Shown: one piece after another, positions 11,491 through 60,686 of the stretch | Layout of the letters: each line of letters starts with the position of its first letter | How positions within the stretch are numbered: position 1 is the stretch's first letter | From: Heterodontus francisci | Lineage: Eukaryota | Assembly: GCF_036365525.1 (NCBI RefSeq) | Contig: NC_090415.1 | Location: 12,090,001-12,154,000 of the forward strand | DNA length: 64,000 bases | Direction of reading: 5' to 3' | Translations under genes and position numbers: made by a program | The notes under the pieces: model-generated | What the model saw: only the letters and a program-made list of their open reading frames with translations | Database searches by the model: none | Told to the model about the DNA's origin: nothing

Positions 11491-11904
<414 letters not shown>

Positions 11905-12379: not shown

Positions 12380-12395
12380 GGCTCTGAAAAGAGCC
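12380..12395 (-). terminator. Histone stem-loop (H2A copy 1)
   Basis: GGCTCTTTTCAGAGCC on the minus strand. Confidence 0.95.
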
Positions 12396-12425
12396 TTTGG
12401 GTTCACAGATTCAAGTCCGGCCGCT

Positions 12426-13040
<615 letters not shown>

Positions 13041-13757
13041 TCAAATTTGAAAAGCCCGCCAATATATTGGGGCGGCTTCAATATAGAATATCAAATTTAT
13101 AGTTCTTTTTGTACGGTTAAATAAATAAAACCTTTTCCATATTGTGTTATTCTACATTTGGTAACAAGTTCCAGATTGGCTTTTACATTCTGACATCTAT
13201 TCGGGTTTACTCTCTGTCCTTTTTAAAACCAGCGAGCAGAAAGTCTCTTTCACAACATTCTCCAACCGGGCACATTTCATGTCAATTTTCATAATAATAC
13301 CGCATTACTGATGAACGATTGTTTGTTATTCGTGGGAGACAACAGCGGAGTGTAGATTTTCAGTGTCAGGTGTCAGCGTGTGAGACGGAGGGTTCCGACA
13401 CCACCCGGGGTTCTAGATAATGTAATTATTAATTTCTGAGGTCAAACTTGAACTAGGGAAATAAGTGACTGCGAACTGATGTATGTGCGTTAAATCAGCT
13501 TTTATTGTCGAAATACAGAAAAGGGGCCGAATATGAACACGTCCGAGAACAAACCTCACAAATGGTCAGTGGTCAGTAATTTATGTACGGGACATTATTA
13601 GTTAGAGACAGAAAGATCGCACGGGCAGTGAAACTGCATTAACCAGAATCTATGGGAGTAAAACAGAGATCACAAAGGCAAGGACACTTGATATATAAAT
13701 CAATATAAGTCGATACTATACAGACTATGTTGTAGCTTTTTCAGAGAAGTTGTGGGT

Positions 13758-14744: not shown

Positions 14745-15152
14745 CAGCGCTTCTGATATGTCTTCCTTTTTCCTCAACCGAGGATACCCTTGTCCTCACT
14801 TTCCACCCCATCAGCCTCCACATCCAAAGAATCATCCTCCGCCATTTCTGCCACCTCCAGCGAGATGCCATTACTAAATGCATCTTCCCCTCCCTTCCCC
14901 TGTCAGCATTCCGAAGGGATCATTCTCTCCGCAACACCCTGGTCCACTCCTCCATTACCCCCACCACCTTGTACCCTTCCCACGGCACCTTCCCCTGCAA
15001 TCGCAGGAGGTGTAATACCTGCCCCTTTACCTCCTCTCTCCTCACAATCCCAGGCCCCAAACACTCCTTTTGAGTGAAGCAGCGATTTACTTGGACTTCT
15101 TTCAATATGTTATACTGTATTCACTGCTCACAAAGTGGTCTCCGCTACATAG
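14745..15152 (+). mobile_element. Penelope-like element, GIY-YIG endonuclease fragment
   Basis: LVLTFHP..IILRHF..AFRRDHSLRNTLVHS..CNRRRCNTCPF, then YCIHC..GLRYIG. Confidence 0.8.
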
Positions 15153-17870
15153 GCCCTTTGGCCCACTGTGTCTCTGCCTCCCATCAAGTATGAATCTATT
15201 CGAATCACATTTTCCAGCACTTGGCCCCTAGTCTTGTATGCTATGACATTTCACGTGTTCATCTAAATCCTTCTCAAATGCTATGAGGGGTCCTGCCTCT
15301 ACCAGCTCTTCAGGTAGTGTGTTCCAGATTCCAACCACACTCTGCGTGAAATATTTTCTCCTCAAGTCCCCTCTAAACCTGCTGCCCATTACTTAAATCT
15401 ATCTCCCCTAGTTATTGATCCCTCCACTGAGGGAAATGTTTTCTTCCTATCTATACGATCAATGTCCCATGTAATTTTGTATACCTCAATCAGTTCCCCC
15501 CTCAGCCTTCTCTGCTCCAAGGAAAACAACCCAAGCCTATCCAGTCTCTCTTCATAACTGAAATGCCACAGCCCAGGAAACATCCTGATGAATCTCCTCT
15601 GCATGCTCTCCATTGAAATCACGTCCTTCCTTTGGTGAGTTAACCAGAACTGTACACAGTACTCCAGCTGTGGCCTAACTAGCATTTTATTCAGCTCCCT
15701 CATAACCTCCCAGCTCTTATATTCTATGCCTCGGCTAATAAAGACAAGTATCCCATATGCCTTCCTAACCACCTTATCTACCCGTGCTTCTGCCTTCAGT
15801 GATCTATGGACAAGTACACCAAGGTCCCTCAGTACATCTTAGGATCTGACCATTCATTGTATATTCCCTTGCCTTGTTGGGCCTCCCAAAATGCATCACC
15901 TCATATTTTCGCACTTCTCTGGATTAAATTCCATTTGCCACTGCTCCACCCATCTTACCAGACCATCTATATCATCCTGTAATCTAAGGCTTTCCTCCTC
16001 ACCATTTCTGACACCAATCTTCATGTCATCTGTGAACTTACTGATCATATCTACTACATTCACGTCTAAATCATTCATGTACACTACAAACAGCAATGGT
16101 CCCAGCATCAATCACTGTGGTAGACCACTGATCACAAACTTCAACTAACAAAAACAACGCTCGACCATCACCCTCTGCCTCCTGCCACTAAGCCAATTTT
16201 GTATCCAATTTACCAAATTGCCCTGGATCCCATGGGCTCTTACCTTCTTAACCAATCTCACATGTGGGTCTTTATCTAAAGCCTTACTGAAGTCCATGTA
16301 GATAACATCAACTGCCTTACCCTCATCTACACATCTAGTCATCTCCTCAAAAAATTCAATCAAGTTTGTTAGACACGATTTTTTTTTCAAGTCACCTCCT
16401 CACTCTGCTTATTATTCTTATATATTTTTATTTAATTACCACCTCCCCCCCCCACCCCCCCCCCCACCCCCACTCCCCGACATTTTCTATACTCCTCTAG
16501 GGCCTCCGCTGTTTTCTGCCCTAAGCCTCTTTTTTTTTCCGTTATCCAATCCTCTATATCCCTTGACATCCAGGGTTCCCTGGATTTGTTCATCCTACGC
16601 TTCACCTTTATGGGAACATGTTGGACCTGAATTCTCATTATTTCCTTTTTGAATGACTCCCACTAGTCGGATGTAGACTTTCCTATAAGTAGCTTCTCGC
16701 AGTCCACTTTGGCCAGATCCTGTTTTATCATTTTGAAATCGGTCTTACCAAATTGAGTACATTTATTTCTGGTCCCTCTTTGTCCTTTTCCATAACTACC
16801 TTAAATATTACTGAGTTATGGCCACTATCCCCGAAATGCTCCCCCACTGACACTCCTACCACTTGTCCGGCTTCACTCCCTAGGATTAGGTCGAGCACGG
16901 CTCCTTCTTTTATAGGACTTTCTACCTGCTGGCTCAAAAAGATCTCCTGTGTGCACCTAAAGAACTCTGCCTCCTTTAAGCCATTTGCACTAAGACGATC
17001 CCAGTTGATATTGGGTCAGTTGAAATCCGCTACAATTATTACCCCATTATTTTAACAACTATCTGAGATTTGCCTACATATCTGCTCTTCTATCTCTCAC
17101 TGACTGTTTGGAGGTCTGTAGTACACTCCCAGCCAAGTGATTGCCCCCCTTTTTGTATTTATGTTCTACCCATATGGCCTCATTTGAGGAATGTTCGAAG
17201 ATATCATCCCTCCTTATACAGTAATTGACTCCTTGATCAACTGTGCACTGCCACCTCCTATTTTATACCCTCCCCTGTCATGCCTGAAGATTCTATACCC
17301 TGGAATATTGAGCTACCAGTCCTGCCCTTCCCTCAACCATGTCTCCGTGAAAACAATAATATTATATTTCCATGTGTTAATAAATGGCCTCAATTCATCT
17401 GCCTTACTCGTAAGATTCCTTGCATTAAAATAGATGCAATCCAGCCTTGCATTGTTAGCTTGTGTCTTAACATGTCTGCATTTTCTCTGCCTTCCAGACT
17501 GACTCAGTTTCTCTTCTATATTTGACTGTGCATCAGCCCTTACTGTACATCCCCTCTATATCCCACCCCCTTGCCAAATTAGTTTGCAACCACCACCCCC
17601 CCGCCCCCCTCCCCCAAATTCACGTGCAAACCTCCCAGCAAGGCTGTTGGTCCTGATCCAGTTCAGGTGCAATCTGTCCAACTTGTACAATTCCCACCTT
17701 GGCCAGAAACAGACCCAGTGATCCAGGAAATTAAAGCCCTCCCTCCTGCACTATCTCTTCAGCCACACATTCATCTCCTCTATCCTCCTATTCCTATACT
17801 CACCTGCACGTGGCAGCGGGGGTAATCCAGCGATTACAACCTTTGTGGACCCCTTTTCTTTAATCTGCTA
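15153..17870 (-). mobile_element. Old CR1 LINE, heavily disrupted, from end of ORF1 to 3' UTR
   Basis: Minus ORFs 16728 (LDLIL..GDSGHN), 16432 (REPW), 16145 (YMDFSKA), 15896 (FTDD), 15389. Confidence 0.9.
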
Positions 17871-20949: not shown

Positions 20950-21303
20950 GAAGTAAACCTCCTTTGAACTGCCTCCAACACATTTACTTCCTTCCTTAAA
21001 GAAGGAGACCAAAACTGCACACAGTATTCTAGATGTGGTCTCACCAATGACCTGTATAATTGAAGTATAACAGGCTTATTGTCATTTTCAATTCCTCTCA
21101 TAATAATGGATAACATTCCATTTGCCTTCTTCATGTCTTGCTGTAACTGCACACTAACTTTTTTGACTCATGCACTAGAACACCTAGATCCCTCTGCACC
21201 CCAGAATTCTGCAGTCACGCTACACTAATGTATCTTTTGATCTCTCTGACAAAGTGAACAACTTCACATTTTCTCACATTGTACATCATCTGCCAGATTT
21301 CTG
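20950..21303 (-). mobile_element. CR1 fragment cut by the duplication breakpoint
   Basis: ORF 20940..21152 LYRSLVRPHLEYCVQFWSP. Confidence 0.85.
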
Positions 21304-22082
21304 TATTTTAAAGGGTAATGGTGTTATTGAGTGTGTTATGGACACGCTGAACAGACGTGCAGCACTGCAACAGTGAACTCTCCTCCGGTGCCGCGGGTGA
21401 GACGGTCACTTCTCCGCTCGGTACGTTCTAATCTGACGGGGCATTTATCTGTCTTCAGTCCTGCATCGAAGGACGGAGAGAACCAGCCTGTCACTGCCTG
21501 GAACAAAAAAAAAACACAGCGTCTGAATGTGGGATTATTCTGTAACTGGACATCTCTCCTTGTTGACAATGGGATGTCTGGGACACCTGGAAAAATATGG
21601 ATAGACTATAGGAAGAGACAGTCGATCATTTGTATTTTCACAGTCAGGAAACATGTTTCTGTGTGCGATCAATAACATCAAACCGGACAGTAGTTTGAAC
21701 ACATTCAAAGCTGTGATTTGCTCTTGCCGTCGAACCTAATAAACAGACAACATTCGCAGCGCCAGTCTCAGAGTGTTTAACACTTACTGAGTCTAGAAAA
21801 TACAAATACCCACCGTGAATCCGCAGCACAGGCCGAGCGGAGGGGAAATCCTGTCCTGGGAACGCTAAATTGAGCGAACAGTTCGGCCTGAGATTGTGTG
21901 GATGTGAATATTGTGGAAGAGAGTGTATTAAAGGGGCGGGCGCGTTAGTCTAATGCCACTGTGTTTGTGGGTCTGGTCTCATCGTCGGATTTCCGAGTCC
22001 CTTTTGTGTAAAATAACAAGATTTTCCAGTCAAAGAAGCACTTTGCTCCCCTTCTAATCCTCAAAGTGGGAATTCAGTGTTG

Positions 22083-24276
22083 TTTTTTTTTTAGAATTAG
22101 AATATTACAGCGCAGTACAGGCCCTTCGGCCCTCGATGTTGCGCCGATCATCTGACCTACACTATTCCATTTACATCCATATGTCTATCCAATGACCACT
22201 TAAATGCCCTTAAAGTTGGCGAGTCTACTACTGTTGCAGGCAGGGCGTTCCACGCCCCTACTACTCTCTGCGTAAAGAAACTACCTCTGACATCTGTCCT
22301 ATATCTTTCACCCCTCAACTTAAAGCTATGTCCCCTCCTGTTTGCCATCCTCATCCGAGGAAAAAGACTCTCACTCTCCACCCTATCTAACCCTCTGATT
22401 ATCTTGTATGTCTCTATTAAGTCACCTCTCCTCCTCCTTCTCTCTAACGAAAACAACCCCAAGTCCCTCAGCCTTTCCTCGTAAGACCTTCCTTCCATAC
22501 CAGGCAACATCCTAGTAAATCTCCTCTGCACCCTTTCCAAAGCTTCGACATCCTTCCTATAATGCGGTGACCAGAACTGCACGCAATACTCCAGGTGCGG
22601 CCTCACCAGAGTTTTGTACAGCTGCATCATGACCCCGTGGCTCTGAAACTCGATCCCCCTACTAATAAAGGCTAACACACCATATGCCTTCTTAACAGCC
22701 CTATTAACCTGGGTAGCAACTTTCAGGGATTTATGTACCTGGATACCAAGATCTCTCTGCTCATCTACACTACCAAGAATCTTCCCATTAGCCCAGTACT
22801 CTGCATTGCTGTTACTCCTTCCAAAGTGAATCACCTCACACTTCTCCGCATTAAACTCCATTTGCCATCTCTCAGCCCAGCTCTGCAGCCTATCTATGTC
22901 CCTCTGTACCCTACAACACCCTTCGACACTATCCACAACTCCACCGACCTTCGTGTCATCCGCAAATTTACTAACCCACCCTTCTACACCCTCATCCAGG
23001 TCGTTTATAAAAATGACAAACAGCAGTGGCCCCAAAACAGAACCTTGCGGTACACCACTAGTAACTAAACTCCAGGATGAACATTTGCCATCAACCACCA
23101 CCCTCTGTCTTCTTTCAGCTAGCCAATTTCTGATCCAAAGCTCTAAATCACCTTCAACCCCATACTTGCGTATTTTCTGCAATAGCCTACCGTGGGGAAC
23201 CTTATCAAATGCCTTACTGAAATCCATATACACCACATCCACGGCTTTACCCTCATCCACCTGTTTGGTCACCTTCTCGAAAAACTCAATAAGGTTTGTG
23301 AGGCACGACCTACCTTTCACAAAACCGTGCTGACTATCGCAAATGAACTTATTCTTTTCAAGATGATTATAAATCCTGTCTCTTATAACCTTTTCCAACA
23401 TTTTACCCACAACCGAAGTAAGGCTCACAGGTCTATAATTACCAGGGCTGTCTCTACTCCCCTTCTTGAACAAGGGGACAACATTTGCTATCCTCCAGTC
23501 CTCCGGCACTACTCCTGTCGACAATGACGACTTAAAGATCAACAACAACGGCTCTGCAATCTCCTCCCTGGCTTCCCAGAGAATCCTAGGATAAATCCCA
23601 TCTGGCCCAGGGGACTTATCTATTTTCACTCTTTCCAAAATTGCTAACACCTCCTCCTTGTGAATCTCAATCCCATCTAGCGTAGTAGGCTGTATCTCAG
23701 TAATCTCCTCGGCAACATTTTCTTTCTCTACTGTAAATACTGACGAAAAATATTCATTTAACGCTTCCCCTATCTCCTCTGATTCCGCACACAACTTCCC
23801 ACTACTATCCTTGATTGGCCCTGTTCTAACTCTTATCATTCGTTTATTCCTGATATACCTATAGAAAGCCTTAGGGTTTTCTTTGATCCTATCCGCCAAT
23901 GACTTCTCGTGTCCTCTCCTTGCTCTTCTTAGCCCTCCCTTTAGATCCTTCCTGGCTAGCTTGTCACTCTCAAGCGCCCTAACTGAGCCTTCACGTCTCA
24001 TCCTAACATAAGCCGCCCTCTTCCTCTTGACAAGCGCTTCAACTTCTTGAGTAAACCATGGCTCCCTTGCTCGACAACTTCCTCCCTGCCTGACAGGTAC
24101 ATACTTATCAAGGACACGCATTAGCTGCTCCTTGAATAAGCTCCACATTTCGTTTGTGCCCATCCCCTGCAGTTTCCTTCTCCATCCTACACATCCTAAA
24201 TCTTGCCTAATCGCGTCATAATTTCCTTTCCCCCAGCTATAATTCTTGCCCTGCGGTATATACCTGTCCCTGCCCT
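22083..24276 (-). mobile_element. CR1 with intact RT ORF (duplicate)
   Basis: ORF 22157..24295 identical in translation to 5201..7339. Confidence 0.96.
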
Positions 24277-24657
24277 GTTTGTTTGTCGATTTCAAGATTT
24301 TAATCGAAAAGTATGGAACATGTCAGCGATCGGCTGAGAGAGTCATCAGTGCAGCAATGAAACGGGTTTCAGTCGAAAATGGAGTCTTTACTTCAAGTGA
24401 AACCTTTGTGACAGCAAACATTCTGATGTCAGAGACAGGAAGGATCTCGCCTGGGACTCTGGAATACCCGAATTTCAGTGGAATTGGAGAGTTTAGGACC
24501 AGAGAGAAACACAGAGAGGCAGCAGGAGCCGGGAGCTGACAGCAGGTTGTCTCCGCCCCGTCCGCTCGCTGCCTTTAAATTGCTCAGTGCCGCCACCACC
24601 AGCTTCATTTCTGACCCAGTTCTGACTGACAGAGAGACTTTGTGCAGAGTCCTGGAC

Positions 24658-25341
24658 ATGACCGATACTGCAGCCGCCGAAACGGCTCCTGCAGCCGCCG
24701 CCGCTACAGTCAAGACTCCGAAGAAGAAGAAGGCGGCTCCCCGGAAGGGGTCAGGCGGTCCCAAGTTGGGCGAGCTGATCCTCAAGACTGTGGCGGAATG
24801 CAGTGTCCGCAGTGGGATGTCACTGCAGGCAATAAAGAAGGCTCTGCTTGTTAAAGGTGTCGATGTGGAGAAGGGCAAGTTCCAAATCAAGCAAAATATC
24901 AAGCGGCTTGTGTCGAACGGCTTCCTGGTGCAGACGAAGGGCACGGGGGCCTCCGGCAGCTTCAAAATCGCGAAACAGGAAAAGAAGGGAAATGTGGTGA
25001 AGAAGATTCAGACAGGAGCAGCCAAGAGATCTTTAGTGAAGAAAACAGCTGCCAAGAAACTGATCACAAAGAAAACAGCCAAGAAATCCCCAGGGAAGAA
25101 AATAGTCACCAAGAAAGTGAGCAGCAAGAAGACGGCAGCCAAGAAAGTGAGCACCAAGAAGACGGCAACGCCAAAGAAGGCGGTAAAAAAAGCAACGCTT
25201 CCAAAAAAATCTCCAGCGAAGAATGCTAATAAAACCAAGAGGGCCACGGGCGGAAAGCCGCCCAAGAAAGTCCAATCATCAAGGGGCGGGAAGAAGCCGA
25301 AAGCAGTAAAGGCTCAGAAAGCAGCCCCTGGAAAGAAGTGA
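24658..25341 (+). CDS. H1: Histone H1 copy 2
   Basis: Identical protein to copy 1; stem-loop 25378-25393. Confidence 0.96.
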   Translation: MTDTAAAETAPAAAAATVKTPKKKKAAPRKGSGGPKLGELILKTVAECSVRSGMSLQAIKKALLVKGVDVEKGKFQIKQNIKRLVSNGFLVQTKGTGASGSFKIAKQEKKGNVVKKIQTGAAKRSLVKKTAAKKLITKKTAKKSPGKKIVTKKVSSKKTAAKKVSTKKTATPKKAVKKATLPKKSPAKNANKTKRATGGKPPKKVQSSRGGKKPKAVKAQKAAPGKK

Positions 25342-26096
25342 AACAGCACGGGAAACTTGTAGACATCTGAACCCAAAGGCTCTTTTCAGAGCCACCCACG
25401 TCTCTCAGGAAAGAGCTGATCCCCGATCAAATGAGCCTGTCCCGCAGTCGTGCGTACATTTCACCTAGAAATGATTTGAATTAAATCCAAGTTCCCTGGT
25501 GACTCTCAACCCAGCCATTCCTCACTCTCTGCAACAAATCAGGGATGTCCGGGCCTCACTGTACCCGGGTATATGTTCGGTGAAGTCTCAGTTCATGCTC
25601 GTTTCAGGGCGACAGCCTGAAACACAGTAACACGGGCGAGATACCCCGCGTCACATCTCAAACTCCAATACGTGATTTTCTATAATTCAGCTGGGGTTCG
25701 GTTTCAGTAAACTGCTCAATCCGTCTGGGAGGAGAGGTGTGCCGAAACAGGTTGACTTGTGATCGGAAGCACTGCACTTAGGCGGGTGTATTACGAACTT
25801 TTAATTGTAACAGATCCTTATTTAAAGCGCTAATTTCTGTTATCTGTGACTATCAATGCCGAATCTCCATGTTTTATGCTGAGCTCCAATGTCGAGAACT
25901 GTTTTTTTTTGAATTGGCGGTTCGAGCAAGTGGGAGGCGGAGCGAGAGGATCAAAGACATTTCTCTGCTCTGTCTGTCACTCAGTTTCCTCCAGACCCGC
26001 CTCTGGCTCTCTGACTCTTTCTCAGTCAGGTCGGGGCAGGCTGCATAAAAAGGCAGCAGAAGCTGCTCGTTTCTCATTCAGAATTGGTTTGTCTGA

Positions 26097-26417
<321 letters not shown>

Positions 26418-26970
26418 ACAAATCGACCTTGTCCACCAAAAACAAAAGGCTCTTTTAAGAGCCACCCACAACCTCATATAGAGATAAGTGACCTTGAAAT
26501 TGCAGCGGGTATGTCTTGGGATGTGAAATTGTTGTCGCTCATCCAATGTTATGTGGACTTTATCAGATCAGTTTTGCATTCTCTTATAGTCACTTTACGT
26601 CTCGCACATTTTTTCACTGTCTTCTTCTGTTCCATGTTTAATAACCGCGTCATGAATTAAAAGATTACATTTGATAATGTCCATTGCCGACCTGAACTGC
26701 CGGTAAAGATGTCGAAAAGGATTTACTGCCGTTAGAGTAAGAAATGGCCGGAGCTTTATTCCCGCCAGAGACCGAACAGGCAATGAATCCCTATTCAAAC
26801 CGTGTTGGAAGACACAGAGGGGGATCTAGGGCGGAAAAAAATGACGCTAAAAGCACTGAGATTTTATAATCGTTCCCGCCAAATTAGGTTTTCTTTCATC
26901 TTTGCGTCGTTTACTAATTTGAAAATGGCGGGCTTTTTGAAATTGATTCAATTTCAGTTGCATTTCAACC

Positions 26971-27952
26971 GGATGTTGCCGGGACTGGAAAAAATGCAGC
27001 TCTGAGGAAAGATTGAATGGTCCGTGGTTGTTCTCTGTGGCACAGAGAATGCTGAGGAGAGATCTGATTGAATTGGATAACATTTTGAGAGGCCTGGATA
27101 GAGTGTAGGTGAAGGGCCAATTTACCTTCATACAGAGGTCACTGACTAGGGATCAAAGACTTAAAGCGTTTGGTAGAATTATTAGAGGGAAGATGAGGAC
27201 AAGGTTTTTTTTCCCTCTCATCTAGAGGATGGTGGGGGTCTGGAACTCAATGCCTGAAAGGGTAGTTGAGGCAGAAATCTTCAAATCATTCAAAAGAAGT
27301 CTGGATATGCACCTCAAGTGCATATTCTACAGGGTTACAGACCAAATGCTGGCAGGTGGGATTAGAATGGGTGGAGAGCTTTCCGGCTGGCACAGACACG
27401 ATGGTCCAAGTGGCTTCTTTCTGTGCCATAAACTTTCAATTATTTTCAGAAAAGAGAAGGCTGAGGGGGGACATGATTGAGGTATCCAAAATTATGAAGG
27501 TCATTGATAGGTTAGACAGGAGGAAACTTTTTGTTTTCCCTCAGCGAACGGATCGATCAGTCGGTCAGGGGCAGGAGGTTTAATGGAGATGTGAGGGGGG
27601 AAAAAACACTCATCATGTGGTTGGAATCTGGAACACACTGCCTGAATAGGTGGCAGAGGCAGGAACCCTCACAACATTTAAGAGGTATTTAGATGAGCAC
27701 TTGAAACGCCATAGCATACAAGAATACGGGTCAAGTGCTGGAAAATGGGATTAGAATAGTTAGATGCTTGAAGAAATACTTGCAGGTTTATAGGTAAATT
27801 GCCCCTAGTGTAGGTAAATGGGAGGAGAATGGTGGGGATGCCGGAGGGAATATGGGATTAATGTCGGATTAGTATAAATGGGTGGTTGTTGGTCGGCACA
27901 GACTCGGTGGGCCGAAGGGCCTGTTTCTGTGCTGCTTAAATCCATGACTCTA
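26971..27952 (+). mobile_element. CR1 fragments plus SINE tail (duplicate of 10015..10996)
   Basis: Identical ORF track at +16,956. Confidence 0.8.
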
Positions 27953-28446
27953 TGTTTAGTTATCGCGTCATGAATTAAACGGTTGCATTTGATAAAGTCC
28001 ATTGACGACCTGAACTGCCGGTGAAGATGGTCGATTTATTCCCGTTAGAGTAAGCAATGACCGGACCTTTATTCCCGCCTGAGACCGAACAAGGAATGAA
28101 CCCCAATTCAAACCGTATTGGAAGAAACGGAGGTGGAATCGAGGGCCGAAAGATGAAGCTCCAAGCAATGAGATTTTATAATTGTTCCCGCCGAATTAGG
28201 TTTTATTTAATCTTTGAGTAGTTTGCTAATTTGAAATTGGCGGGCTTTTTGAATTTGATGAAATTTCAGTTGCAGTTCAACCAATCAGGGAGCAGCAATT
28301 CCCACCGCCCTTATCAATCGTTTCAAATTGGATGATGGACGGGGCTTCATCCAATCACAACATTAGGACGGTCCTTCGACTGTCTTAAATAGGCAGTTCC
28401 TGAGCAGCTTCAGCATTAAACGCGACATTGTGCAAGGTCTCCGTAG

Positions 28447-28860
<414 letters not shown>

Positions 28861-29381
28861 ACTGACCCTGCCCGGAACTGAGTTCGGCATCAAATACCAC
28901 AACGGCTCTTTTAAGAGCCACCAAATCGACAAAAGAAAGAGTTGTGATCTCTTGTTCATTCCAGCACATAAACGTCTCAAGGTTTTGACCACTTATTTAC
29001 TCAAAGCCGGGAAACACAAATACTTTTGTCTGCATCCGGCAGCTGGAGATTTCATGACGTGTCAGTTGTAAGATCGAGAGTAGCGATACCAATGTGCACA
29101 GCGCATTTTAATAGACCGGCGATCGTTTTAGGACTGAACAAATGTTTGTGGTACATAAAGGGTAGAATGGTAAAAGTGCCTTTCCAATAGGGTCTGAGGG
29201 AATTAGAATGTATTTCATCTGATGAGCAACTAAATGCCAAAATCCAGTACACTTCATTCCAACACAAAACAATGATAACAGTATAATATTACAGTCTTTC
29301 AGACAGTAACCAGCCCTTTCACAGATAAAGTGGGTGGCTCTGAAAAGAGCCTTTGGGTTCACAGATTCAAGTCCGGCCGCT

Positions 29382-29891
<510 letters not shown>

Positions 29892-30687
29892 TCATTGTGC
29901 TGTACATGTAACCAATCAGAGAGCTGCTCAATTCACCAATCACAAGAAGACAGTGAGTTGAGAGCGGAAAATAAGAGCGCGAAATGGTCAGGCTCCCAAC
30001 GATATTTCACATTTGAAAAGCCCGCCAATATATTTGTAAAACAAGGGGCGGCTTCAATATAGAATATCACATTTATAGGTTATATTGTTTTACAGAAAAC
30101 ATTGCAAAAACGTGTTCATTTTTTAATTCCACATTTTGTCCCAGATTCGCTTTTGTAATCCGCCATGTATTCTGCTTTATTCTTTTTCATGATACAGTCT
30201 AACCAGCGGCTGAAAGACTCATTCACAGCATTTTGTAACCGGACACATTTCAGGTCAATCTTCGTAATTATACTGTATCACTGATTCTAGATTGATCCCT
30301 TTTCGTGGGAGACAAAAGCGGAGTATAGATTTTCAGTGTCACGGGTTAGAGACTGAGGGTGCCTAAACCAACGGGGTTTCTTAACAATGTACTTATTCAT
30401 AAAGATAGCCAAACTTTAACACGGCAACCAAGTAACTGAGAACATCTTTAAATCATGCGTTAAATCAGCTTTCATTTTCGAAATATAGCAAAGGGGCCAA
30501 AATGAATCTGCATTAACCTGACCGGATTTAAACAGAGAATACAACCGCCATCAAAAATTTGCAGAGTATTCGTATTAACATAAAAAGAAATCGATAATTA
30601 TGATGTTGTAGCTATTTCAGAGAAATTGTGGGTGGCTCTTAAAAGAGCCTTTTTTGTATATTGTGTTTTTCAGTCCATGGTGGCGAT

Positions 30688-36761: not shown

Positions 36762-37140
36762 CGGTGGCACAGTGGTTAGCACCACAGCCTCACAGCTCCA
36801 GCGACATGGGTTTGGTTCTGGGGACTGCCTGTGCGGAGTTTGCAAGTTCTTCCTGTGACCATGTGGGTTTCCGCCGGGCGATCTGATTTTCTCCCACAGC
36901 CAAAGACTTGCAGGTTGATAGGTAAATTGCCCATTGTAAATTGCCCCTAGTATAGGTTGGTGGTAGGGAAGGTGGGTAGAGGTAGGGAATATGGGATTAA
37001 TGTAGGATTAGTATAAATAGGTGGTTGTTGGTCGGATGGGGTTAATTTAGGATTAGTCTAAAAATGGGTGGTTGTTAGTCAGCACAGACTCGGTTGCCCA
37101 AAGGGCCTTGTTCAGTGCTGGATCACTCTTTGACTCTAAA
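36762..37140 (+). mobile_element. HE1-type SINE
   Basis: ggtggcacagtggttagcacc...; tail gactcta; aatac on both sides. Confidence 0.85.
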
Positions 37141-37348
37141 TACTCCAGATGAGTCTCACCAAGGCCTTGTATAACTGCAGTAAGACATCTGTGCTCCTGC
37201 CCTCAAATCCTCTTGCAACGAAGGCCAACATACCATTTTCCTTCCTAATTGCTTGCTGCACCTGAATGCTTGCTTTCAGCGACTGATGTACAAGGACACC
37301 CAGGTCTCGTTGCACCTCCCCCTTTCCCTATCTATCACTATTCAGATA

Positions 37349-39141
37349 GGAAAGGGCTCTGATGAGGAGCCACCATGTTGAATTGTACCTTTCATATTGT
37401 CATGGAATGAGGTGATGATACTTAGTAGCTTTGGTGGACATCCGATCTTTTCTAGTAGTCTGAAGAGACCACGTCTGCTGACGAGGTCAAAGGCTTTGGT
37501 GAGATCAATGAAAGCAATGTAGAGGGGCATCTGTTGTTCACGGCATTTCTCCTGTATCTGACGAAGGGAGAACAGCATGTCAATAGTCGATCTCTCTGCA
37601 CGAAAGCCACACTGTGCCTCAGGGTAGACGCGCTCGGCCAGCTTCTGGAGCCTGTTCAGAGCGACTCGAGCAAAGACTTTCCCCACTATGCTGAGCAGGG
37701 AGATTCCACGGTAGTTGTTGCAGTCACCGCGGTCACCTTTGTTTTTATAGAGGGTGATGATGTTGGCATCGCGCATGTCCTGGGGTACTGCTCCCTCGTC
37801 CCAGCACAGGCATAGCAGTTCATGTAGTGCTGAGAGTATAGCAGGCTTGGCACTCTTGATTATTTCAGGGGTAATGCTGTCCTTCCCAGGGGCTTTTCCG
37901 CTGGCTAGAGAATCAATGGCATCACTGAGTTCTGATTTGGTTGGCTGTATGTCCAGCTCATCCATGACTGGTAGAGGCTGGGCTGCATTGAGGGCAGTCT
38001 CAGTGACAGCATTCTCCCTGGAGTACAGTTCTAGGTAGTGCTCAACCCAGCGGTCCATTTGTTTGCGTTGGTCAGTGATTATGTCCCCCGATTTAGATTT
38101 GAGGGGGGTGATCTTCTTGATGGTTGGCCCAAGAGCTCTCTTCATGCCATCATACATTCCTCTGATGTTTCCGGTGTCTGAGGCCAGCTGAATATGACTG
38201 CAAAGGTGTTGCCAGTAGTCGTTTGCGCAACGCCTAGCTGTTCTTTGTGCAGTACTTCTGGCTGCTTTAAGTGCTGCGGATGTTAAATCGCTCGGGGCTT
38301 TCTTGTAGTTCAAAAGTGCAATGCGCTTAGCGGCTATGACAGGTTCCAGCTCTTCATTATGAGATTGAAACCAGTCTGCATTTCTCTTCGCACTTTTGCC
38401 GTAGGTGGTCAAAGCTGACTCATAGATGGCGTCTCTGATGTGGGCCCACTTGGTCTCAGCATCCCCTGTGGGAGTGTTTTGAAGGGCTGTTACAAGTGAA
38501 TTTAGAAATTTTTGTAACAGCTGTGGGTGAGAAATTCTGCTCGTGTTGATGCGCGGGTGGCCCTTCTGCTTGGAATGATGCAACTTCTTTGGTCTGAGTC
38601 TAACCTTGCTGCACACCAGGGAGTGGTCGGTGTCGCAGTCCGCACTGTGGAAGCTGCGTGTGATTTGAACACTGTTTAAGGCGGCTCGCCTTGTGACAAT
38701 GAGGTCTAGCTGGTGCCAACGACGTGATCTTGGGTGCCTCCATGAAACCTGGTGACAGGGTTTAGTGTGAAAGAACGAGTTGGTGATGCAGAGGTTATGA
38801 TAGGTACACAACTCAAGCAGTCTCTGCCCGTTCTCATTCATCCTTCCAACGCCATAGCGCCCAAGGCAGGAGGGCCATGAGTCATGGTCGGCCCCAACCC
38901 TGGCATTAAAGTCCCCCAGCAGGAATAGGTGTTCGGTGTTGGGGATGCTGCTAATGATGTTATGGAGTTGTTCATAGAACTGGTCTTTAGCTTCAGGTGC
39001 GGAGCAGAGTGTTGGAGCATAGATGCTGAGTAGGTGTACTGGACCAGAGGTGGTGAGCAGTCGGATGGACAGTATGCGTTCCGAGCCATTTGAGGGAGGC
39101 TCTATCATGCTGAGCAAGGAGTTTCTGATGGCGAAGCCATG
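37349..39141 (-). mobile_element. RTE-clade LINE, inverted 5' segment (APE endonuclease plus first half of RT)
   Basis: ORF 37342..39165: SIYAPT, LLGDFNARVG, QLDLI, DTDH, KAPGKD, NYRGISLL, QCGFR, FIDLTKAFD; no stops. Confidence 0.95.
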
Positions 39142-40284
39142 TTTTCTTCTCCCTGCTGCTTTCACATGCGTTCAAATCCTCTGAAGAAGGAATTTTCCTC
39201 CACACAAGATCAGGGGGCAGGTTGTTCAACCTTGCCCGTCTAAGAGCGAAGTCCAAAGTACGGAAAGTCCTCATCAGAGAACTCCTCTTTGCTGACGATG
39301 CTGCTTTAACATCTCACACTGAAGAATGCCTGCAGAGTCTCATCGACAGGTTTGCGTCTGCCTGCAATGAATTTGGCCTAACCATCAGCCTCAAGAAAAC
39401 GAACATCATGGGGCAGGATGTCAGAAATGCTCCATCCATCAATATTGGCGACCACGCTCTGGAAGTGGTTCAAGAGTTCACCTACCTAGGCTCAACTATC
39501 ACCAGTAACCTGTCTCTAGATGCAGAAATCAACAAGCACATGGGTAAGGCTTCCACTGCTATGTCCAGACTGGCCAAGAGAGTGTGGGAAAATGGCGCAC
39601 TGACACGGAACACAAAAGTCCGAGTGTATCAGGCCTGTGTCCTCAGTACCTTGCTCTACGGCAGCGAGGCCTGGACAACGTATGCCAGCCAAGAGCGACG
39701 TCTCAATTCATTCCATCTTCGCTGCCTTCGGAGAATACTTGGCATCAGGTGGCAGGACTATATCTCCAACACAGAAGTCCTTGAAGCGGCCAACACCCCC
39801 AGCTTATACACACTACTGAGTCAGCGGCGCTTGAGATGGCTTGGCCATGTGAGCCGCATGGAAGATGGCAGGATCCCCAAAGACACATTGTACAGCGAGC
39901 TCGCCACTGGTATCAGACCCACCGGCCGTCCATGTCTCCGTTATAAAGACGTCTGCAAACGCGACATGAAATCGTGTGACATTGATCACAAGTCGTGGGA
40001 GTCAGTTGCCAGCATTCGCCAGAGCTGGCGGGCAGCCATAAAGACAGGGCTAAATTGTGGCGAGTCGAAGAGACTTAGTAGTTGGCAGGAAAAAAGACAG
40101 AGGCGCAAGGGGAGAGCCAACTGTGCAACAGCCCCAACAAACAAATTTCTCTGCAGCACCTGTGGAAGAGCCTGTCACTCCAGAATTGGCCTTTATAGCC
40201 ATGCCAGGCGCTGCATCACAAACCACTGACCACCTCCAGGCGCGTATCCATTGTCTCTCGAGATAAGGAGGCCCAAAAGAAAGA
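39142..40284 (+). mobile_element. RTE-clade LINE, non-inverted 3' segment
   Basis: ORF 39222..40229: LLFADD, FTYLGS, LLYGSEAW, RLRWLGHV, C-terminal CxxC...HxxxC; aaaagaaaga tail; TSD ACTATTCAGATA. Confidence 0.95.
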
Positions 40285-41619
40285 ACTATTCAGATAATAA
40301 TCTGCTTTACTGTTTTAAAACCAAAGTGGATAACTTCACTTTTATCCAATTTATATTTCATCTGCCACACAGTTGCCGACTCACCCAACTTGTCCAAATC
40401 ACATTGGAGCCTTTTGCATCCTCCTCACAGCTCACAATCCCCCCCCCAACAAACCCCACCCCCAGCTCTGTGTCATCTGCAAACCTGGAAATGTTACATT
40501 TACTTCCCTCACCCAAGTCTGTAAGATATATTGTGAATAGCTGGGGCTCAAGCACAGTATCTAGCAGTACCCCACTGGACCCTGCCTGCCACCCAGAAAT
40601 ATACCCATTTATTCCTATTCTGTTTCCTGTCTGTCAACTAATTCCCAAACCCTGCCAGTATATTACCCCCAATCCCATGTGCTTTAATTTTGCACACTAA
40701 CCTCTTATGTGGGACCTTGTCAAAAGCCTTCTGAAAATCCAAATGCACCACATGCACTAGTTCTTCATTATCGAGTCTGCTAGTTACATCCTCAAAAAAC
40801 TCCAGTGGATTTGTTAAGCATGACTTCTCTTTCGTAAAACTATCACATCCCTTATAATAGACTCCAGCATTTTCCCCACTACTGATGTAAGGTTCACTCG
40901 TCTGTAATTCCTTTTTTTTCTCTCCCTCCTTGTTTTAAATAGTGAGGTTACATTTTCCACCCTCCAATCTGTACGAACTGCTCCAGAGTCTACAGAATTT
41001 TGGAATATCCGGTACTTCATATGTATCTCAGGCATTGTGGTGACAACTCTTTGTTTCACACGTTAATGTATCAATATGTGTTTACTTGTGTTTAATTTAA
41101 AATATGGATTAACGATGTTTTATTGCTGTAGGTTTTATTCAATTCTTGTTTGTGAGTTTTGGCTTTTTATCCAATTTGTATCTCTGCAAAAGCAATTGTG
41201 AATGACAATCTTTCAATTTTAGAGTATGACCTGACATGTAATGTTAAATTCCATCAGTTTGTAGTAAATGAACTAATCCTGTATGTTTTTGTCTGACCCT
41301 TAGTGACATGTTTACACTGGTGTGTAATTTGTAGCTCAGTTTATATTGTGGGGTATGTTATTGGGATTCATTCTGAAGCTTTCAATCAGGTACATTTTGT
41401 CTGTTCTGTTTAAGATCTGGTATTTGAATTGTAGCCAAGGCGACACAGTGTATTTAAATCAGATAATGTGTGTGTTTTTGGACTGTGATTCATGTATCTA
41501 CCAGTCAGTTGGAGAGAAATAGAAACAAATACGATCTCTATGCTCTGTTTGACTATTGGATTGATAATGTGTCTCTTTGGGATCAGTGTGGGTCTGACTA
41601 CTTCTTTTGTTTGTTACAG

Positions 41620-41793: not shown

Positions 41794-42214
41794 GTGAGTG
41801 AGAAGACACAAAAGTGATCAATGTAATATTTTCAGTAAGACGGGAGACATAAATACTTTTGTCTGCATCCGGCAGCTGCAGATTTCATGACGTGGCAGTT
41901 GTAAGATCTGGAGTAGCGATACCAATGTGCACAGCGCATTTTAATAGACTGGCGATCGTTTTCGGACTGAACAAATGTTTGTGGTACATAAAGGGTAGAA
42001 TGGTAAAAGTGCCTTTCCAATAGGGTCTGAGAGAATTAGAATGCATTTCATCTGATGAGCAACTAAATGCCAAAATCCAGTACACTTCATTCCAACACAA
42101 AACAATAATAACAGTATAATATTACAGTCTTTCAGACAGTAGCCAGCCCTTTTACAGATAAAGTGGGTGGCTCTGAAAAGAGCCTTTGGGTTCACAGATT
42201 CAAGTCAGGCCGCG

Positions 42215-42724
<510 letters not shown>

Positions 42725-43333: not shown

Positions 43334-44763
43334 CTTTTCTTTTTTCTTTTTCTTTTGGGCCTCCTTATCTCGAGAGACAATGGATACGCGCCTGGAGGTG
43401 GTCAGTGGTTTGTGAAGCAGCGCCTGGAGTGGCTATAAAGGCCAATTCTGGAGTGACAGGCTCTTCCACAGGTGCTGCAGAGAAATTTGTTTGTTGGGGC
43501 TGTTGCACAGTTGGCTCTCCCCTTGCGCCTCTGTCTTTTTTCCTGCCAACTACTAAGTCTCTTCGACTCGCCACAATTTAGCCCTGTCTTTATGGCTGCC
43601 CGCCAGCTCTGGCGAATGCTGGCAACTGACTCCCACGACTTGTGATCAATGTCACACGATTTCATGTCGCGTTTGCAGACGTCTTTATAACGGAGACATG
43701 GACGGCCGGTGGGTCTGATACCAGTGGCGAGCTCGCTGTACAATGTGTCTTTGGGGATCCTGCCATCTTCCATGCGGCTCACATGGCCAAGCCATCTCAA
43801 GCGCCGCTGACTCAGTAGTGTGTATAAGCTGGGGATGTTGGCCGCTTCAAGGACTTCTGTGTTGGAGATATAGTCCTGCCACCTGATGCCAAGTATTCTC
43901 CGAAGGCAGCGAAGATGGAATGAATTGAGACGTCGCTCTTGGCTGGCATACGGTGTCCAGGCCTCGCTGCCGTAGAGCAAGGTACTGAGGACACAGGCCT
44001 GATACACTCGGACTTTTGTGTTCCGTGTCAGTGCGCCATTTTCCCACACTCTCTTGGCCAGTCTGAACATAGCAGTGGAAGCCTTACCCATGCGCTTGTT
44101 GATTTCTGCATCTAGAGACAGGTTACTGGTGATAGTTGAGCCTAGGTAGGTGAACTCTTGAACCACTTCCAGAGCGTGGTCGCCAATATTGATGGATGGA
44201 GCATTTCTGACATCCTGCCCCATGATGTTCGTTTTCTTGAGGCTGATGGTTAGGCCAAATTCATTGCAGGCAGACGCAAACCTGTCAATGAGACTCTGCA
44301 GGCATTCTTCAGTGTGAGATGTTAAAGCAGCATCGTCAGCAAAGAGGAGTTCTCTGATGAGGACTTTCCGTACTTTGGACTTCGCTCTTAGACGGGCAAG
44401 GTTGAACAACCTGCCCCCTGATCTTGTGTGGAGGAAAATTCCTTCTTCAGAGGATTTGAACGCATGTGAAAGCAGCAGGGAGAAGAAAATCCCAAAAAGT
44501 GTGGGTGCGAGAACACAGCCCTGTTTCACACCACTCAGGATAGGAAAGGGCTCTGATGAGGAGCCACCATGTTGAATTGTGCCTTTCATATTGTCATGGA
44601 ATGAGGTGATGATACTTAGTAGCTTTGGTGGACATCCGATCTTTTCTAGTAGTCTGAAGAGACCACGTCTGCTGACGAGGTCAAAGGCTTTGGTGAGATC
44701 AATGAAAGCAATGTAGAGGGGCATCTGTTGTTCACGGCATTTCTCCTGTATCTGACGAAGGGA
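43334..44763 (-). mobile_element. RTE-clade LINE, 5'-truncated second copy
   Basis: ORF 43402..44772 includes SGVKQGCVLAP and FADD; nearly identical to the first copy; A-rich (aaaag)n tail. Confidence 0.95.
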
Positions 44764-51664: not shown

Positions 51665-53720
51665 GAAACATAGAATCTTGGAGCAGGAGTAGGTCATTTG
51701 ACCCTGTGGGCCTGCTCCACCATTCAAATAGGGATCATGGCTGTTTGTCTAATTCAGTGCCCTGTTCCCACATTCTCCCCATATCAGTTGATCCCTTTGG
51801 CATTAAGAAATATATCTATTTCCTTCTTGAATATATCTAATAACTTGGCCTCCACTGCCTTTTGCGGTAGAGAATTCCACAGGTTCACCACCCTCTGAGT
51901 GAAGAAATTTCTCCTCAACTCAGTTCTAAATTGCATACCCCATCTCCTGAGACTGTGACCCCTGGCTCTGGACTCCCCAGCCATCGGGAACATCCTCCCT
52001 GCATCCAGCATGATTAGTCCTGTTAGAATTTATAGGTTTCTATGAGATCCCCTCTCATTCTTCTGAACTAAAGTGAATATAGGCCTACTTGACCCAATCT
52101 CTCCTCATATGTCAATCCTGCCATCCCAGAAAACAAGGCGAGAACAACCTTCCAAAGACAAAGAGACCAAAACAGCACACAATACTCCAGATGAGTCTCA
52201 CCAAGGCCCTGGATAACTGCAGTAAAACATTCTTGCTCCTGTACTCAAATCCTCTTGCAATGAAGGCCAACATACCATTCGAATTCCAAATTGCTTGCTG
52301 CACCCAAATGCTTACTTTCACCCAGATCTCGTTGCATCTCCCCCTTTCCCAATCTATCACCATTCAGATAATAATCTGATTTTCTGATTTTAAAACCAAA
52401 GTGTATAACCTCATTTTTATCCACTTTATATTTCATCAGCGACGCATTTGCCTAGTCACCTACCTTGTCCAAATCACATTGGGGGTCTCTTTGCATCCAC
52501 CTCACAATCCCACCCAAACCCCACCCCCAGCTCTGTCATCTGCAAACCTTGAAATGTTACTTTTATTTCCCTCACCCAAGTCATTCAGATATATTGTGAA
52601 TAGTTGGGGCCCAAACACAGATCCCTGCAGTACCCCACTGGTCCCTGCCTGCCACCCAGAAAAAGACCCATTTATTCCTACTGTCTGCTTCCTGTCTGTC
52701 AACTAATTCCCAATCCCTGCCAGTAGTCTGCTGGTTACATCCTCAAAAAATCCAGTGGATTTGTTAAGCATGACTTCCCTTTCGTAAAACCCATGCTGAC
52801 TTTGCCCAAACCCATTTATGCTTTCTAGGTGTTCTGCCATCACATCCTTTATAATAGACTCTAGGTGTTCTGCTATCACATCCTTTATAATAGACTCTAG
52901 GTGTTCTGCCATCACATCCTTTATAATAGACTCTAGGTGTTCTGCTATCACATCCTTTATAATAGACTCTAGGTGTTCTGCCATCACATCCTTTATAATA
53001 GACTCTCGGTGTTCTGCCATCACATCCTTTATAATAGACTCTAGGTGTTCTGCTATCACATCCTTTATAATAGACTCCAGGTGTTCTGCTATCACATCCT
53101 TTATAATAGACTCTAGGTGTTCTGCTATCGCAGCCTTTATAATCGACTCTAGGTGTTCTGCCATCACATCCTTTATAATAGACTCTAGGTGTTCTGCCAT
53201 CACATCCTTTATAATAGACTCTCGGTGTTCTGCCATCACATCCTTTATAATAGACTCTAGGTGTTCTGCTATCACATCCTTTATAATAGACTCCAGGTGT
53301 TCTGCTATCACATCCTTTATAATAGACTCTAGGTGTTCTGCTATCACATCCTTTATAATAGACTCTAGGTGTTCTGCTATCACATCCTTTATAATAGACT
53401 CTCGGTGTTCTGCCATCACATCCTTTATAATAGACTCTAGGTGTTCTGCTATCACATCCTTTATAATCGACTCTAGGTGTTCTGCCATCACATCCTTTAT
53501 AATAGACTCTAGGTGTTCTGCCATCACATCCTTTATAATAGACTCTCGGTGTTCTGCCATCACATCCTTTATAATAGACTCCAGCAGTTTCCCCACTACC
53601 AATGTCAGGCTCACTGGTCTGCAGTTCCCTGTGTTTTCTCTCCCTCCTTGTTTTAAATAGTGGGGTTACATTTTCCACCCTCCAATCTGTACGAACTGCT
53701 CCAGAGACTACAGAATTTTG
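51665..53720 (-). mobile_element. CR1 fragment containing the VNTR; paralog of 36515..41000
   Basis: SGVLQGSVFGP, FADD, NFFTQRVVNLWNSLP. Confidence 0.85.
52824..53579. repeat. 36-bp minisatellite, 21 copies
   Basis: TCTAGGTGTTCTGCYATCACATCCTTTATAATAGAC, unit starts 52824 to 53544 in steps of 36. Confidence 0.98.
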
Positions 53721-58864: not shown

Positions 58865-60686
58865 AGTGTTCGGTGCTGTATCACTCTGTGACTCTAAGTA
58901 CTCCAGATGAGCCTCACCAAGGCCTTGTATAACTGCAGTAAGACATCTGTGCTCCTGTACTCAAATCCTCTTGCAACGAAGGCCAACATACCATTTTCCT
59001 TCCTAATTGCTTGCTGCACCTGAATGCTTGCTTTCAGCGACTGATGTACAAGGACACCCAGGTCTCGTTGCACCTCCCCCTTTCCCTATCTATCACTATT
59101 CAGATAATAATCTGCTTTACTGTTTTAAAACCAAAGTGGATAACTTTCACTTTTATCCTATTTATATTTCATCTGCCACACAGTTGCCTACTCACCCAAC
59201 TTGTCCAAATCACATTGGAGCCTTTTGCATCCTCCTCACAGCTCACAATCCCCCCCCCAAACCCCACCCCCAGCTCTGTGTCATCTGCAAACCTGGAAAT
59301 GTTACATTTACTTCCCTCACCCAAGTCTGTAAGATATATTGTGAATAGCTGGGGCTCAAGCACAGTTTCCTGCAGTACCCCACTGGACCCTGCCTGCCAC
59401 CCAGAAATATACCCATTTATTCCTGCTCTGTTTCCTGTCTGTCAACTAATTCCCAATCCCTGCCAGTATATTACCCCCAATCCCATGTGCTTCAATTTTG
59501 CACACTAACCTCTTATGTGGGACCTTGTCAAAAGCCTTCTGAAAATCTAAATGCACCACATCCACTAGTTCTCCATTATTGAGTCTGCTAGTTACATCCT
59601 CAAAAAATTCCAGTGGATTTGATAAGCATGACTTCCCTTTCGTAAAACTATCACATCCTTTATAATCGACTCCAGCATTTTCCCGACGACTGATGTAAGG
59701 TTCTGTCTGTAATTCCTTTTTTTTTCTCTCCCTCCTTGTTTTAAATAGTGGGGTTACATTTTCCACCCTCCAATCTGTACGAACTGCTCCAGAGTCTACA
59801 GAATTTTGGAATATCCGGTACTTCATATGTATCTCAGGCATTGTGGTGACAACTCTTTGTTTCACACGATAATGTATCAATATGTGTTTACTTGTGTTTA
59901 ATTTAAAATATGGATTAACAATGTTTTATTGCTGTAGGTTTTATTCAATTCTTGTTTGTGAGTTGTGGCTTTTTATCCAATTTGTATCTCTGCAAAAGCA
60001 ATTGTGAATGACAATCTTTCAATTTTAGAGTATGACCTGACATGTAATGTTAAATTCCATCAGTTTGTAGTAAATGAACTAATCCTGTATGTTTTTGTCT
60101 GACCCTTAGTGACATGTTTACACTGGTGTGTAATTTGTAGCTCAGTTTATATTGTGGGGTATGTTATTGGGATTCATTCTGTAGCTTTCAATCAGGTACA
60201 TTTTGTCTGTTCTGTTTAAGATTTGGTATTTGAATTGTAGCCAAGGTGACACAGTGTATTTAAATCAGATAATGTGTGTGTTTTTGGACTGTGATTCATG
60301 TATCTATCAGTCAGTTGGAGAGAAATAGAAACAAATACTATCTCGATGCTTTGTTTGACTATTGGATTGATAATGTGTCTCTTTGGGATCAGTGTGGGTC
60401 TGACTACTTCTTTTGTTTTTTACAGTGGAAATGATGACCTGACCGTGTCACTGTGCTTTGTGACTGATACTGTACCTAATATGTGTTGGAACGAGCTGGA
60501 GGTACTTTTCCATCTATTGATGAGTCATGCCTTTCCTTCTGGTTCCTTCAAGTGTTTGCCTGGCAGTAAAAAAAGGTAACTCTTACACTTGAAGAACAGG
60601 TGAGTGAGAAGACACAAAAGTGATCAATGTAATATTTTCAATAATAATCATTCTGAACAATCACAAAAGGAAAGTTCACACATAAG
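58865..60686. repeat. Duplicated segment paralogous to ~37105-37348 plus 40297-41833 and, more distantly, ~52180-54600
   Basis: Colinear CR1 fragment, unique AT-rich DNA and exon A; lacks the RTE and the VNTR. Confidence 0.9.

What the first reader, a model, noticed from the sequence alone, without database searches (positions are those of the whole stretch)
37337..40296. Twin-priming-type 5' inversion in an RTE-clade LINE
Seen: TSD ACTATTCAGATA (37337-37348, 40285-40296; single at the empty paralog 59095-59106), then 1.8 kb inverted, then 1.14 kb direct plus tail. The outer end of the inverted part maps next to the start of the direct part with ~49 nt missing (LSGVKQGCVLAPTLFG, present in the second copy at ~44490-44538), and the TSD's terminal GATA matches the element at the internal priming point. 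Known: this is the twin-priming signature described for mammalian L1; I know of little documentation for RTE.
Basis: partly seen in the sequence, partly recalled or inferred. Interest (0 to 1): 0.7.

Follow-up and report, generated by a model that had tools for sequence, protein, structure and literature searches.

The report
Front-flipped RTE retrotransposon, twin-primed
A broken 2.9-kb jumping-gene copy, likely of the RTE type, sits between two copies of a 12-base target word with its front 1.8 kb turned backwards, most likely because both cut DNA ends started copying the same RNA, a slip described mainly for mammalian L1, and 14 of 100 long copies sampled from one chromosome of this genome are flipped in the same way.

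Summary
Confirmed. Window 37337-40296 is one young LINE insertion: 12-nt TSD, 1790 nt inverted, 3 extra nt, 1140 nt direct, tail, TSD. Empty paralogous sites hold the 12-mer once. Against a natural full-length copy, 49 nt are missing between the outer end and the direct start, and the TSD's terminal GATA matches the element there.

It recurs in the family (28,020 exact 3'-end hits): 3 of 100 sampled 3' ends and 14 of 100 long copies are inverted. Of 18 inverted copies, 16 have TSDs and 14 have breakpoints within 50 nt. They share the Tn-TA target signature of normal copies. Twin priming is the best reading (0.88).

Limits: no short-read contig spanning this copy's junction was listed. 5' microhomology is as common in plain truncated copies. 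RTE membership rests on anatomy and target signature, not a labelled tree.

Ten paper searches found no report for RTE, but two key papers were not held. This scan noted the same phenomenon before (20 findings in at least 8 genomes, and twice more in this genome). Known mechanism, new clade and host.

The parts
37323..37325 (+). TTT at -14..-12 before the TSD, part of the family's Tn-TA target signature (the -1 base here is C, not the usual T)
   Evidence: sequence; family profile
37337..37348 (+). Left copy of the 12-nt target site duplication; its last 4 nt (37345-37348) match the element antisense at R3488-3485, the inferred internal priming site
37349..39138 (-). Inverted segment, R1695-3484: most of the APE endonuclease and the first half of the RT, open frame
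39139..39141 (+). Three extra bases (ATG) at the inversion junction; possibly copied from 6 nt further along the template after a slip (inferred)
39142..40274 (+). Direct segment from R3538: rest of the RT, C-terminal Cys/His motif, stop at 40227-40229, short 3' UTR
40275..40284 (+). A/G-rich microsatellite-like tail
40285..40296 (+). Right copy of the target site duplication
43345..44763 (-). Second, ordinary 5'-truncated copy of the same family (R3264-4677); holds the missing 49 nt at 44490-44538
59095..59106 (+). Empty paralogous site with a single copy of the 12-mer

Best explanation
This is a single insertion of a young, likely RTE-clade LINE whose front part is inverted, most likely made at the moment of insertion by twin priming. 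Inferred steps: the element's endonuclease nicked the bottom strand at a Tn-TA-type site and reverse transcription began on the RNA's 3' tail, copying 1140 nt back to R3538. The top strand was cut 12 nt away before this finished. Its freed 3' end (...GATA) paired with the same RNA at R3485-3488 and primed a second cDNA that ran 1790 nt to R1695. The two cDNA ends were joined with 3 extra bases, and fill-in left the 12-nt duplication. The 49 nt between the two priming tracks were never copied. Shown: the TSD, the empty sites, the breakpoints, the 4-nt match and the recurrence in the family. Inferred: the order of events and the use of RNA as template.
For: (1) Intact TSD around the whole structure, with empty paralogs. 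(2) Recurrence: 3 of 100 copies taken as the first exact 3'-end hits on C1 and 14 of 100 copies taken by an internal word at R1948-1971; one copy (L114) is in both counts. (3) Of 18 inverted copies analysed, 16 have an 8-14-nt TSD whose left copy adjoins the inverted part. (4) In 14 of 18 the outer end lies within 50 nt of the direct start, against 2.1% per copy by chance; median deletion 17 nt and duplication 19 nt, close to 14.5 and 22 nt for human L1. (5) Outer microhomology sums to 23 nt over the 10 copies at least 98% identical to the reference, against 6.7 expected, p=7.5e-5; p=5e-4 without this copy (two values read by eye). (6) Inverted copies share the target signature of normal copies: no G or C at -12 in 16 of 16 inverted and 35 of 35 truncated copies; T at -1 in 14 of 16 and 31 of 35. 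(7) The marker alleles in both parts of this copy fit one subfamily haplotype seen in 5 of 65 scored copies, apart from one extra allele at R3446, consistent with one template. (8) Short-read contigs of one sample show 5 antisense-to-sense joints among 15 listed, at depth 5-14, which look like other copies' inversion junctions (sides only 21-30 nt, library type not on record).
Against: 5' microhomology is not specific. Plain truncated copies show it too: 20 of 29 anchored cases have 1 nt or more, mean 2.1, so it shows annealing at the 5' junction but not priming on RNA. This copy's inner junction has no exact microhomology, although the model expects annealing there. Three of 18 inverted copies have gaps of 379-1797 nt, one has no TSD, and one has an interrupted 3' end. 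Duplications are 9 of 18 here against 17% in tumour L1 (Fisher p=0.005), so the match to L1 is not exact. All evidence is from sequence footprints; no assay was run.
Confidence: 0.88

Rival explanations
1. An ordinary 5'-truncated copy inserted first, and its front 1.8 kb was inverted later by recombination or break repair.
For: Rearrangement after insertion does occur in this cluster: L002, 613 kb away, shares this copy's inner junction and right flank but has a different left flank and different subfamily alleles. The inner junction has non-matching extra bases, as end-joining can leave.
Against: One break would have to fall exactly at the TSD/element boundary and leave the TSD intact, in 16 of 18 copies. 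In 9 of 18 copies the two parts overlap by about 5-154 nt, which a simple flip of existing DNA does not produce. No inverted repeats bound the segment in the reference alignment.
Confidence: 0.04
2. The structure formed at insertion, but the top-strand end copied a DNA template (another genomic copy or a cDNA duplex) or a second RNA molecule rather than the same RNA.
For: Microhomology is equally present at plain truncated junctions. The family has tens of thousands of near-identical copies. The three copies with gaps of 379-1797 nt would fit a second template.
Against: An independent template gives no reason for the outer end to lie within 50 nt of the direct start in 14 of 18 copies. The markers in both parts of this copy fit one haplotype.
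Confidence: 0.06
3. The inversion is an assembly error between near-identical repeat copies.
For: Copies are 99.3-99.6% identical and the region is a segmentally duplicated histone cluster.
Against: A misjoin would not create a 12-nt TSD matching empty paralogs, 3 extra bases and a 49-nt gap. The same inner junction stands twice in the assembly with different neighbouring variants. Seventeen other copies show the same logic with different breakpoints.
Confidence: 0.02

Closest known systems
5'-inverted (twin-primed) human and chimpanzee L1 insertions; model of Ostertag and Kazazian 2001 (not held; seen through PMC2912911 passages and section 8, and bioRxiv 2024.08.27.596794 passages and section 4 part 1)
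   Same: TSD, inverted 5' part, direct 3' part with tail, TSD; microhomology at the 5' junction; short deletion or duplication at the inversion point (medians 17 and 19 nt here, 14.5 and 22 nt for L1); inverted copies enriched among long insertions.
   Different: Non-L1 element with one APE+RT ORF, no recognised ORF1 and an A/G repeat tail. TSD 8-14 nt instead of about 15. Lower frequency: 3 of 100 here against 30.9% in primate germ line and 51% in tumours. Duplications are 9 of 18 against 17%, on a small and partly selected sample.
One 5'-inverted Nimb-2_DR (zebrafish LINE) insert in chicken DT40 cells, PMC4245944 (passages)
   Same: A non-L1 LINE with a TSD peak near 12 bp giving a 5' inversion outside mammals.
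   Different: A single cultured-cell event. The authors concluded that inversion depends on L1 features and host factors and that a 5-nt overhang may be too short. Here inversions recur in an inherited genome.
[quoted passage not shown]
   Same: TSD of 10-12 nt starting with A, T just before it, T-rich patch about one helical turn upstream, microsatellite-like A-rich tail.
   Different: PMC13295347 does not contain 'inversion', 'inverted' or 'twin', and PMC6007223 has them only in its reference list. The T patch here peaks at -13/-12. The 5' leader is 1.4 kb, not short. PMC13295347 says the signature in fish remains to be elucidated.

Membership tests
Twin-primed 5'-inverted LINE insertion | One TSD encloses inverted and direct parts | tested here: met
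   12-nt TSD with empty paralogs; 16 of 18 inverted copies
Twin-primed 5'-inverted LINE insertion | Inverted part starts at the 3' end of the left TSD with microhomology to the element | tested here: met
   4 nt here; 23 nt over 10 young copies against 6.7 expected; not specific, since truncated copies average 2.1 nt
Twin-primed 5'-inverted LINE insertion | Outer end maps next to the start of the direct part, with a short deletion or duplication | tested here: met
   49-nt deletion here; 14 of 18 within 50 nt
Twin-primed 5'-inverted LINE insertion | Microhomology at the inner junction | tested here: inconclusive
   None exact in this copy (3 extra nt). By eye, 1-6 nt in 10 of 18 and blunt or extra bases in the rest. 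PMC2912911 says inner junctions lack it more often than 5' junctions.
Twin-primed 5'-inverted LINE insertion | Both parts reverse-transcribed from one RNA | not testable with these tools
   Only indirect: one haplotype in both parts and adjacent breakpoints
RTE-clade non-LTR retrotransposon | Single long ORF with APE endonuclease and RT, no ORF1 | tested here: met
   1063-aa ORF with PF03372 and PF00078. The 1.4-kb leader has only ATG frames of at most 123 aa; the one scanned has no Pfam hit. Single ORF as an RTE trait is from a passage of PMC13174262.
RTE-clade non-LTR retrotransposon | Short 5' UTR | tested here: not met
   1433 nt before the first ATG of the long ORF. The trait comes from one passage of PMC13174262; I do not treat it as decisive, but it lowers strict membership.
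RTE-clade non-LTR retrotransposon | TSD peak at 10-12 nt and Tn-TA target signature | tested here: met
   38 of 42 called TSDs are 8-13 nt; A at +1 and T at -1 in 31 of 35, only A/T at -13 and -12; compare
RTE-clade non-LTR retrotransposon | Microsatellite-like 3' tail instead of poly(A) | tested here: met
   A/G repeats of variable length
RTE-clade non-LTR retrotransposon | RT groups with labelled RTE elements in a phylogeny | not testable with these tools
   The 120 listed homologs (60-70% identical) carry no clade names; the Atlas was unavailable. That the RT and C-terminal motifs look RTE-like is recalled, from no call.
Mammalian L1 | ORF1, poly(A) tail and close ORF2p similarity | tested here: not met
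   Human ORF2p matches only residues 429-715 at E about 1e-28; no ORF1 found, no poly(A)

The most novel reading that the evidence does not exclude
Twin priming is a routine outcome for an ORF1-less RTE LINE in a non-mammalian germ line: about 3% of all young copies and 14% of long ones, or several hundred insertions. It would then need neither L1 proteins nor mammalian host factors, only a target overhang of about 9-14 nt. Its junctions may favour short duplications over deletions, unlike L1, and such copies may seed deletions in the histone cluster.
Probability: 0.65. Interest if true: 0.55.

Novelty: new member of a known kind. Interest (0 to 1): 0.42.

Why it matters
PMC4245944 found 5' inversions almost only for L1 in human cells. 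It proposed that they depend on L1 features and host factors, and that the 3' overhang must be long enough to prime. A family with 9-14-nt TSDs, no ORF1 and hundreds of predicted inverted copies in one genome is a ready data set to test the overhang-length idea against the L1-specific one. A within-genome comparison with short-TSD CR1 or L2 families would do it. The same data add a host group to the RTE Tn-TA target signature. For the organism itself this is one dead repeat copy.

Tried and rejected
Read support for this copy: contigs of two runs of one sample, laid on 39060-39225 at 100% identity, gave no listed piece spanning 39141/39142; the longest listed pieces were 31-34 nt and 1559 were not shown. 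The sample holds 81-83% of the stretch's words and may be another individual, so this is no evidence either way. The wider lay showed the empty-site joint 37336 to 40285 at depth about 400-580.

A direct genome-wide count with a wide-gap pattern was not possible, so frequencies come from samples on C1 only.

Breakpoint hotspot: an independent, older copy (L244, C19) has the same direct start, R3538, and an inverted end about 12 nt from this copy's. But 5' ends are only weakly enriched at R1670-1700 (4 of 31, p=0.04 for that window, 0.96 for any window), and RNA pairing between the two regions ranks 23 of 186. I kept it as a lead only.

A common inverted master for this copy, L002 and L244 was rejected: they differ in subfamily alleles and tail type, and L002 shares this copy's right flank. 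An intact parent of L002's left half was not found among 40 scored candidates.

Clade naming by homolog names or the Atlas failed.

Literature: searches gave no paper reporting 5' inversions in RTE elements in the listings or passages I saw. One search was probably blind, because apostrophes cannot be searched. Ichiyanagi and Okada 2008, which examined RTE junctions, and Ostertag and Kazazian 2001 were not held; either may mention this. Supplements were not read; those of the bioRxiv preprint are closed.

Full report
Setting. The window is G000:C45:12090001-12154000 of a 6.0-Gb assembly, in a segmentally duplicated region with histone genes. That the host is a cartilaginous fish is my recalled reading of its repeats, and earlier scan notes say the same; I did not test it.

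Observation. The 12-mer ACTATTCAGATA occurs at 37337, 40285 and 59095 only. The 59095 site and L234 are empty paralogs with 96-97% identical flanks, and 39 of 40 scored hits to the left junction match only the flank plus the 12-mer. I used one natural full-length copy as reference (L131, 4677 nt, R; one 1063-aa ORF with APE and RT). On it, 37349-39138 is antisense R3484-1695, then come 3 extra bases, then sense R3538-4677, the tail and the TSD. The TSD's last four bases equal antisense R3488-3485, leaving R3489-3537 (49 nt) absent; the second copy has them at 44490-44538.

Family and frequency. A 3'-end 25-mer has 28,020 exact hits and an internal 24-mer 9,008, with controls at 0. Sample 1 was the first 100 3'-end hits on C1: 22 resolved in 3-kb loci and 78 in 5.9-kb fetches. 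It includes 11 copies matching 70 nt or less and one likely duplicate pair. Three were inverted (L074, L099, L114; 95% interval 0.6-8.5%). Scaled up, that is about 170-2,400 copies, if C1 is typical.

Sample 2 was the first 100 internal-word hits, 85 newly fetched and 15 already held. Fourteen were inverted (13 new plus L114; interval 7.9-22.4%). One locus gave no hit at 85% identity or more and about seven were fragments without a 3' end; all were counted as not inverted. Inversions shorter than about 20 nt would be missed. L030 was found earlier among 30 loci.

Junction anatomy of 18 copies (this one, L030, 3 from sample 1, 13 from sample 2). Sixteen have an 8-14-nt TSD adjoining the inverted part; L189 is interrupted at its 3' end and L183 has none. 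The outer end is within 50 nt of the direct start in 14 of 18 (chance 2.1% each). Nine have deletions (median 17 nt, three of 379-1797 nt) and nine have duplications (median 19 nt). Outer microhomology in the ten youngest is 4, 2, 3, 1, 1, 0, 3, 3, 4, 2 nt, sum 23 against 6.7 by simulation (p=7.5e-5; two values read by eye). Against over-reading this: 42 of 85 young truncated copies gave a TSD, and 20 of the 29 that could be anchored also have microhomology (mean 2.1). A 19th copy, L244, found by the junction search, has its own 12-nt TSD (by eye), 3-nt microhomology and a 19-nt gap.

Target signature. In 35 non-inverted copies with 9-16-nt TSDs, positions -13 and -12 are only A or T, -1 is T in 31 and +1 is A in 31. 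Sixteen inverted copies show the same: -12 only A/T, -1 T in 14, +1 A in 11. This resembles the Tn-TA signature of Bov-B and other RTE elements (PMC13295347 section 13; PMC6007223 passages). It ties inverted copies to the same endonuclease-cut sites as normal ones, and it supports the RTE label. A labelled tree was not possible, and the 1.4-kb leader is longer than the 'short 5' UTR' quoted for RTE.

Mechanism. The top strand next to the left TSD is antisense to the element, so it must have been copied from a sense template starting at the target's own 3' end (follows from the sequence). The nearness of that start to the end of the first cDNA points to the same RNA (inferred). The marker alleles of both parts fit one subfamily haplotype. 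The extra ATG also lies 6 nt further along the template behind a CC repeat, so it may come from a slip (inferred). Later inversion cannot easily keep the TSD intact or create overlaps. An assembly error cannot easily create a TSD, a gap and extra bases. This copy's own junctions were not seen in the short-read contigs laid (see Tried and rejected), while five joints of the inverted-to-direct type were listed for other breakpoints.

A related hybrid. L002, 613 kb downstream, has the identical inner junction and right flank (98.0% over 1.5 kb) but a different left flank, no TSD, and an inverted part reaching R3781 with a 5-nt match to its own flank. At R2900 and R2924 it carries the alleles of another subfamily. 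The simplest reading is recombination between a duplicate of this copy and a second insertion, deleting what lay between. A misjoin is not excluded.

Comparison with what is known. It works like twin-primed L1: 30.9% of 2,068 primate L1 insertions are inverted (PMC2912911 section 8), and tumour L1 show median deletions of 14.5 and duplications of 22 nt (bioRxiv 2024.08.27.596794 section 4 part 1). PMC4245944 (passages) saw inversions only for L1 in human cells plus one Nimb-2_DR insert, so non-L1 inversion has a precedent. PMC4476161 (passages) reports only template-switch U6 chimeras for L2 and RTE. PMC13174262 and PMC5389967 (passages) add nothing on RTE inversions. Ten searches showed no RTE report, but the two most relevant papers were not held and no supplements were read. 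This scan has noted RTE-type 5' inversions in 20 findings from at least 8 genomes and twice elsewhere in this genome. These are unchecked notes; my reading was formed before I saw them.

Verdict. Real feature, known mechanism, clade and host where I found it undocumented. The added value here is the counted frequency, the junction statistics with controls and the shared target signature. Best explanation 0.88; new member of a known kind; interest 0.42.

Noticed in passing
L002 (G000:C45:12738802-12744737), junction at 1204-1208: Hybrid copy: same inner junction and right flank as the finding, different left flank (paralog of window 15151-16100), no TSD, other subfamily alleles in its outer part. 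Likely a recombination deletion in the histone cluster, or a misjoin.
   Followed up: partly
L244 (G000:C19:55372500-55378700), 2386-5353: Independent, older inverted copy with exactly the same direct start (R3538) and an inverted end about 12 nt away; possible breakpoint hotspot, weakly supported.
   Followed up: partly
L110, L113, L143 (C1 sample): Internally deleted derivatives joining the 5' leader (to about R1170-1220) to the last 55-65 nt, each with a different junction; 11 of 100 sampled 3' ends match the reference for 70 nt or less, many at about 58 nt.
   Followed up: partly
L114, L154, L155: Inverted copies whose second cDNA reached the element's extreme 5' end, so nearly the whole element is present in two opposed pieces.
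   Followed up: partly
L131, first 12 nt and first 1433 nt of the element: The element starts with a CAAGATGGC word resembling the YY1 site at the L1 5' end (recalled, not tested) and has an unusually long 1.4-kb leader with no identified protein.
   Followed up: no
window 36800-40800: Runs labelled as six other organisms and some soil and marine metagenomes hold 24-59% of the sampled 31-mers; near-identical relatives of the element may be shared across species.
   Followed up: no
window 4342-13537 and 21298-30506; 42201-42605: A 9.2-kb segmental duplication (97.7% identical) and histone H2A-like genes in repeated units; the finding's target site is itself repeated dozens of times along C45.
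   Followed up: no
window 52824-53584: Tandem array with a period of about 36/72 nt inserted in another paralog of the flanking unit.
   Followed up: no
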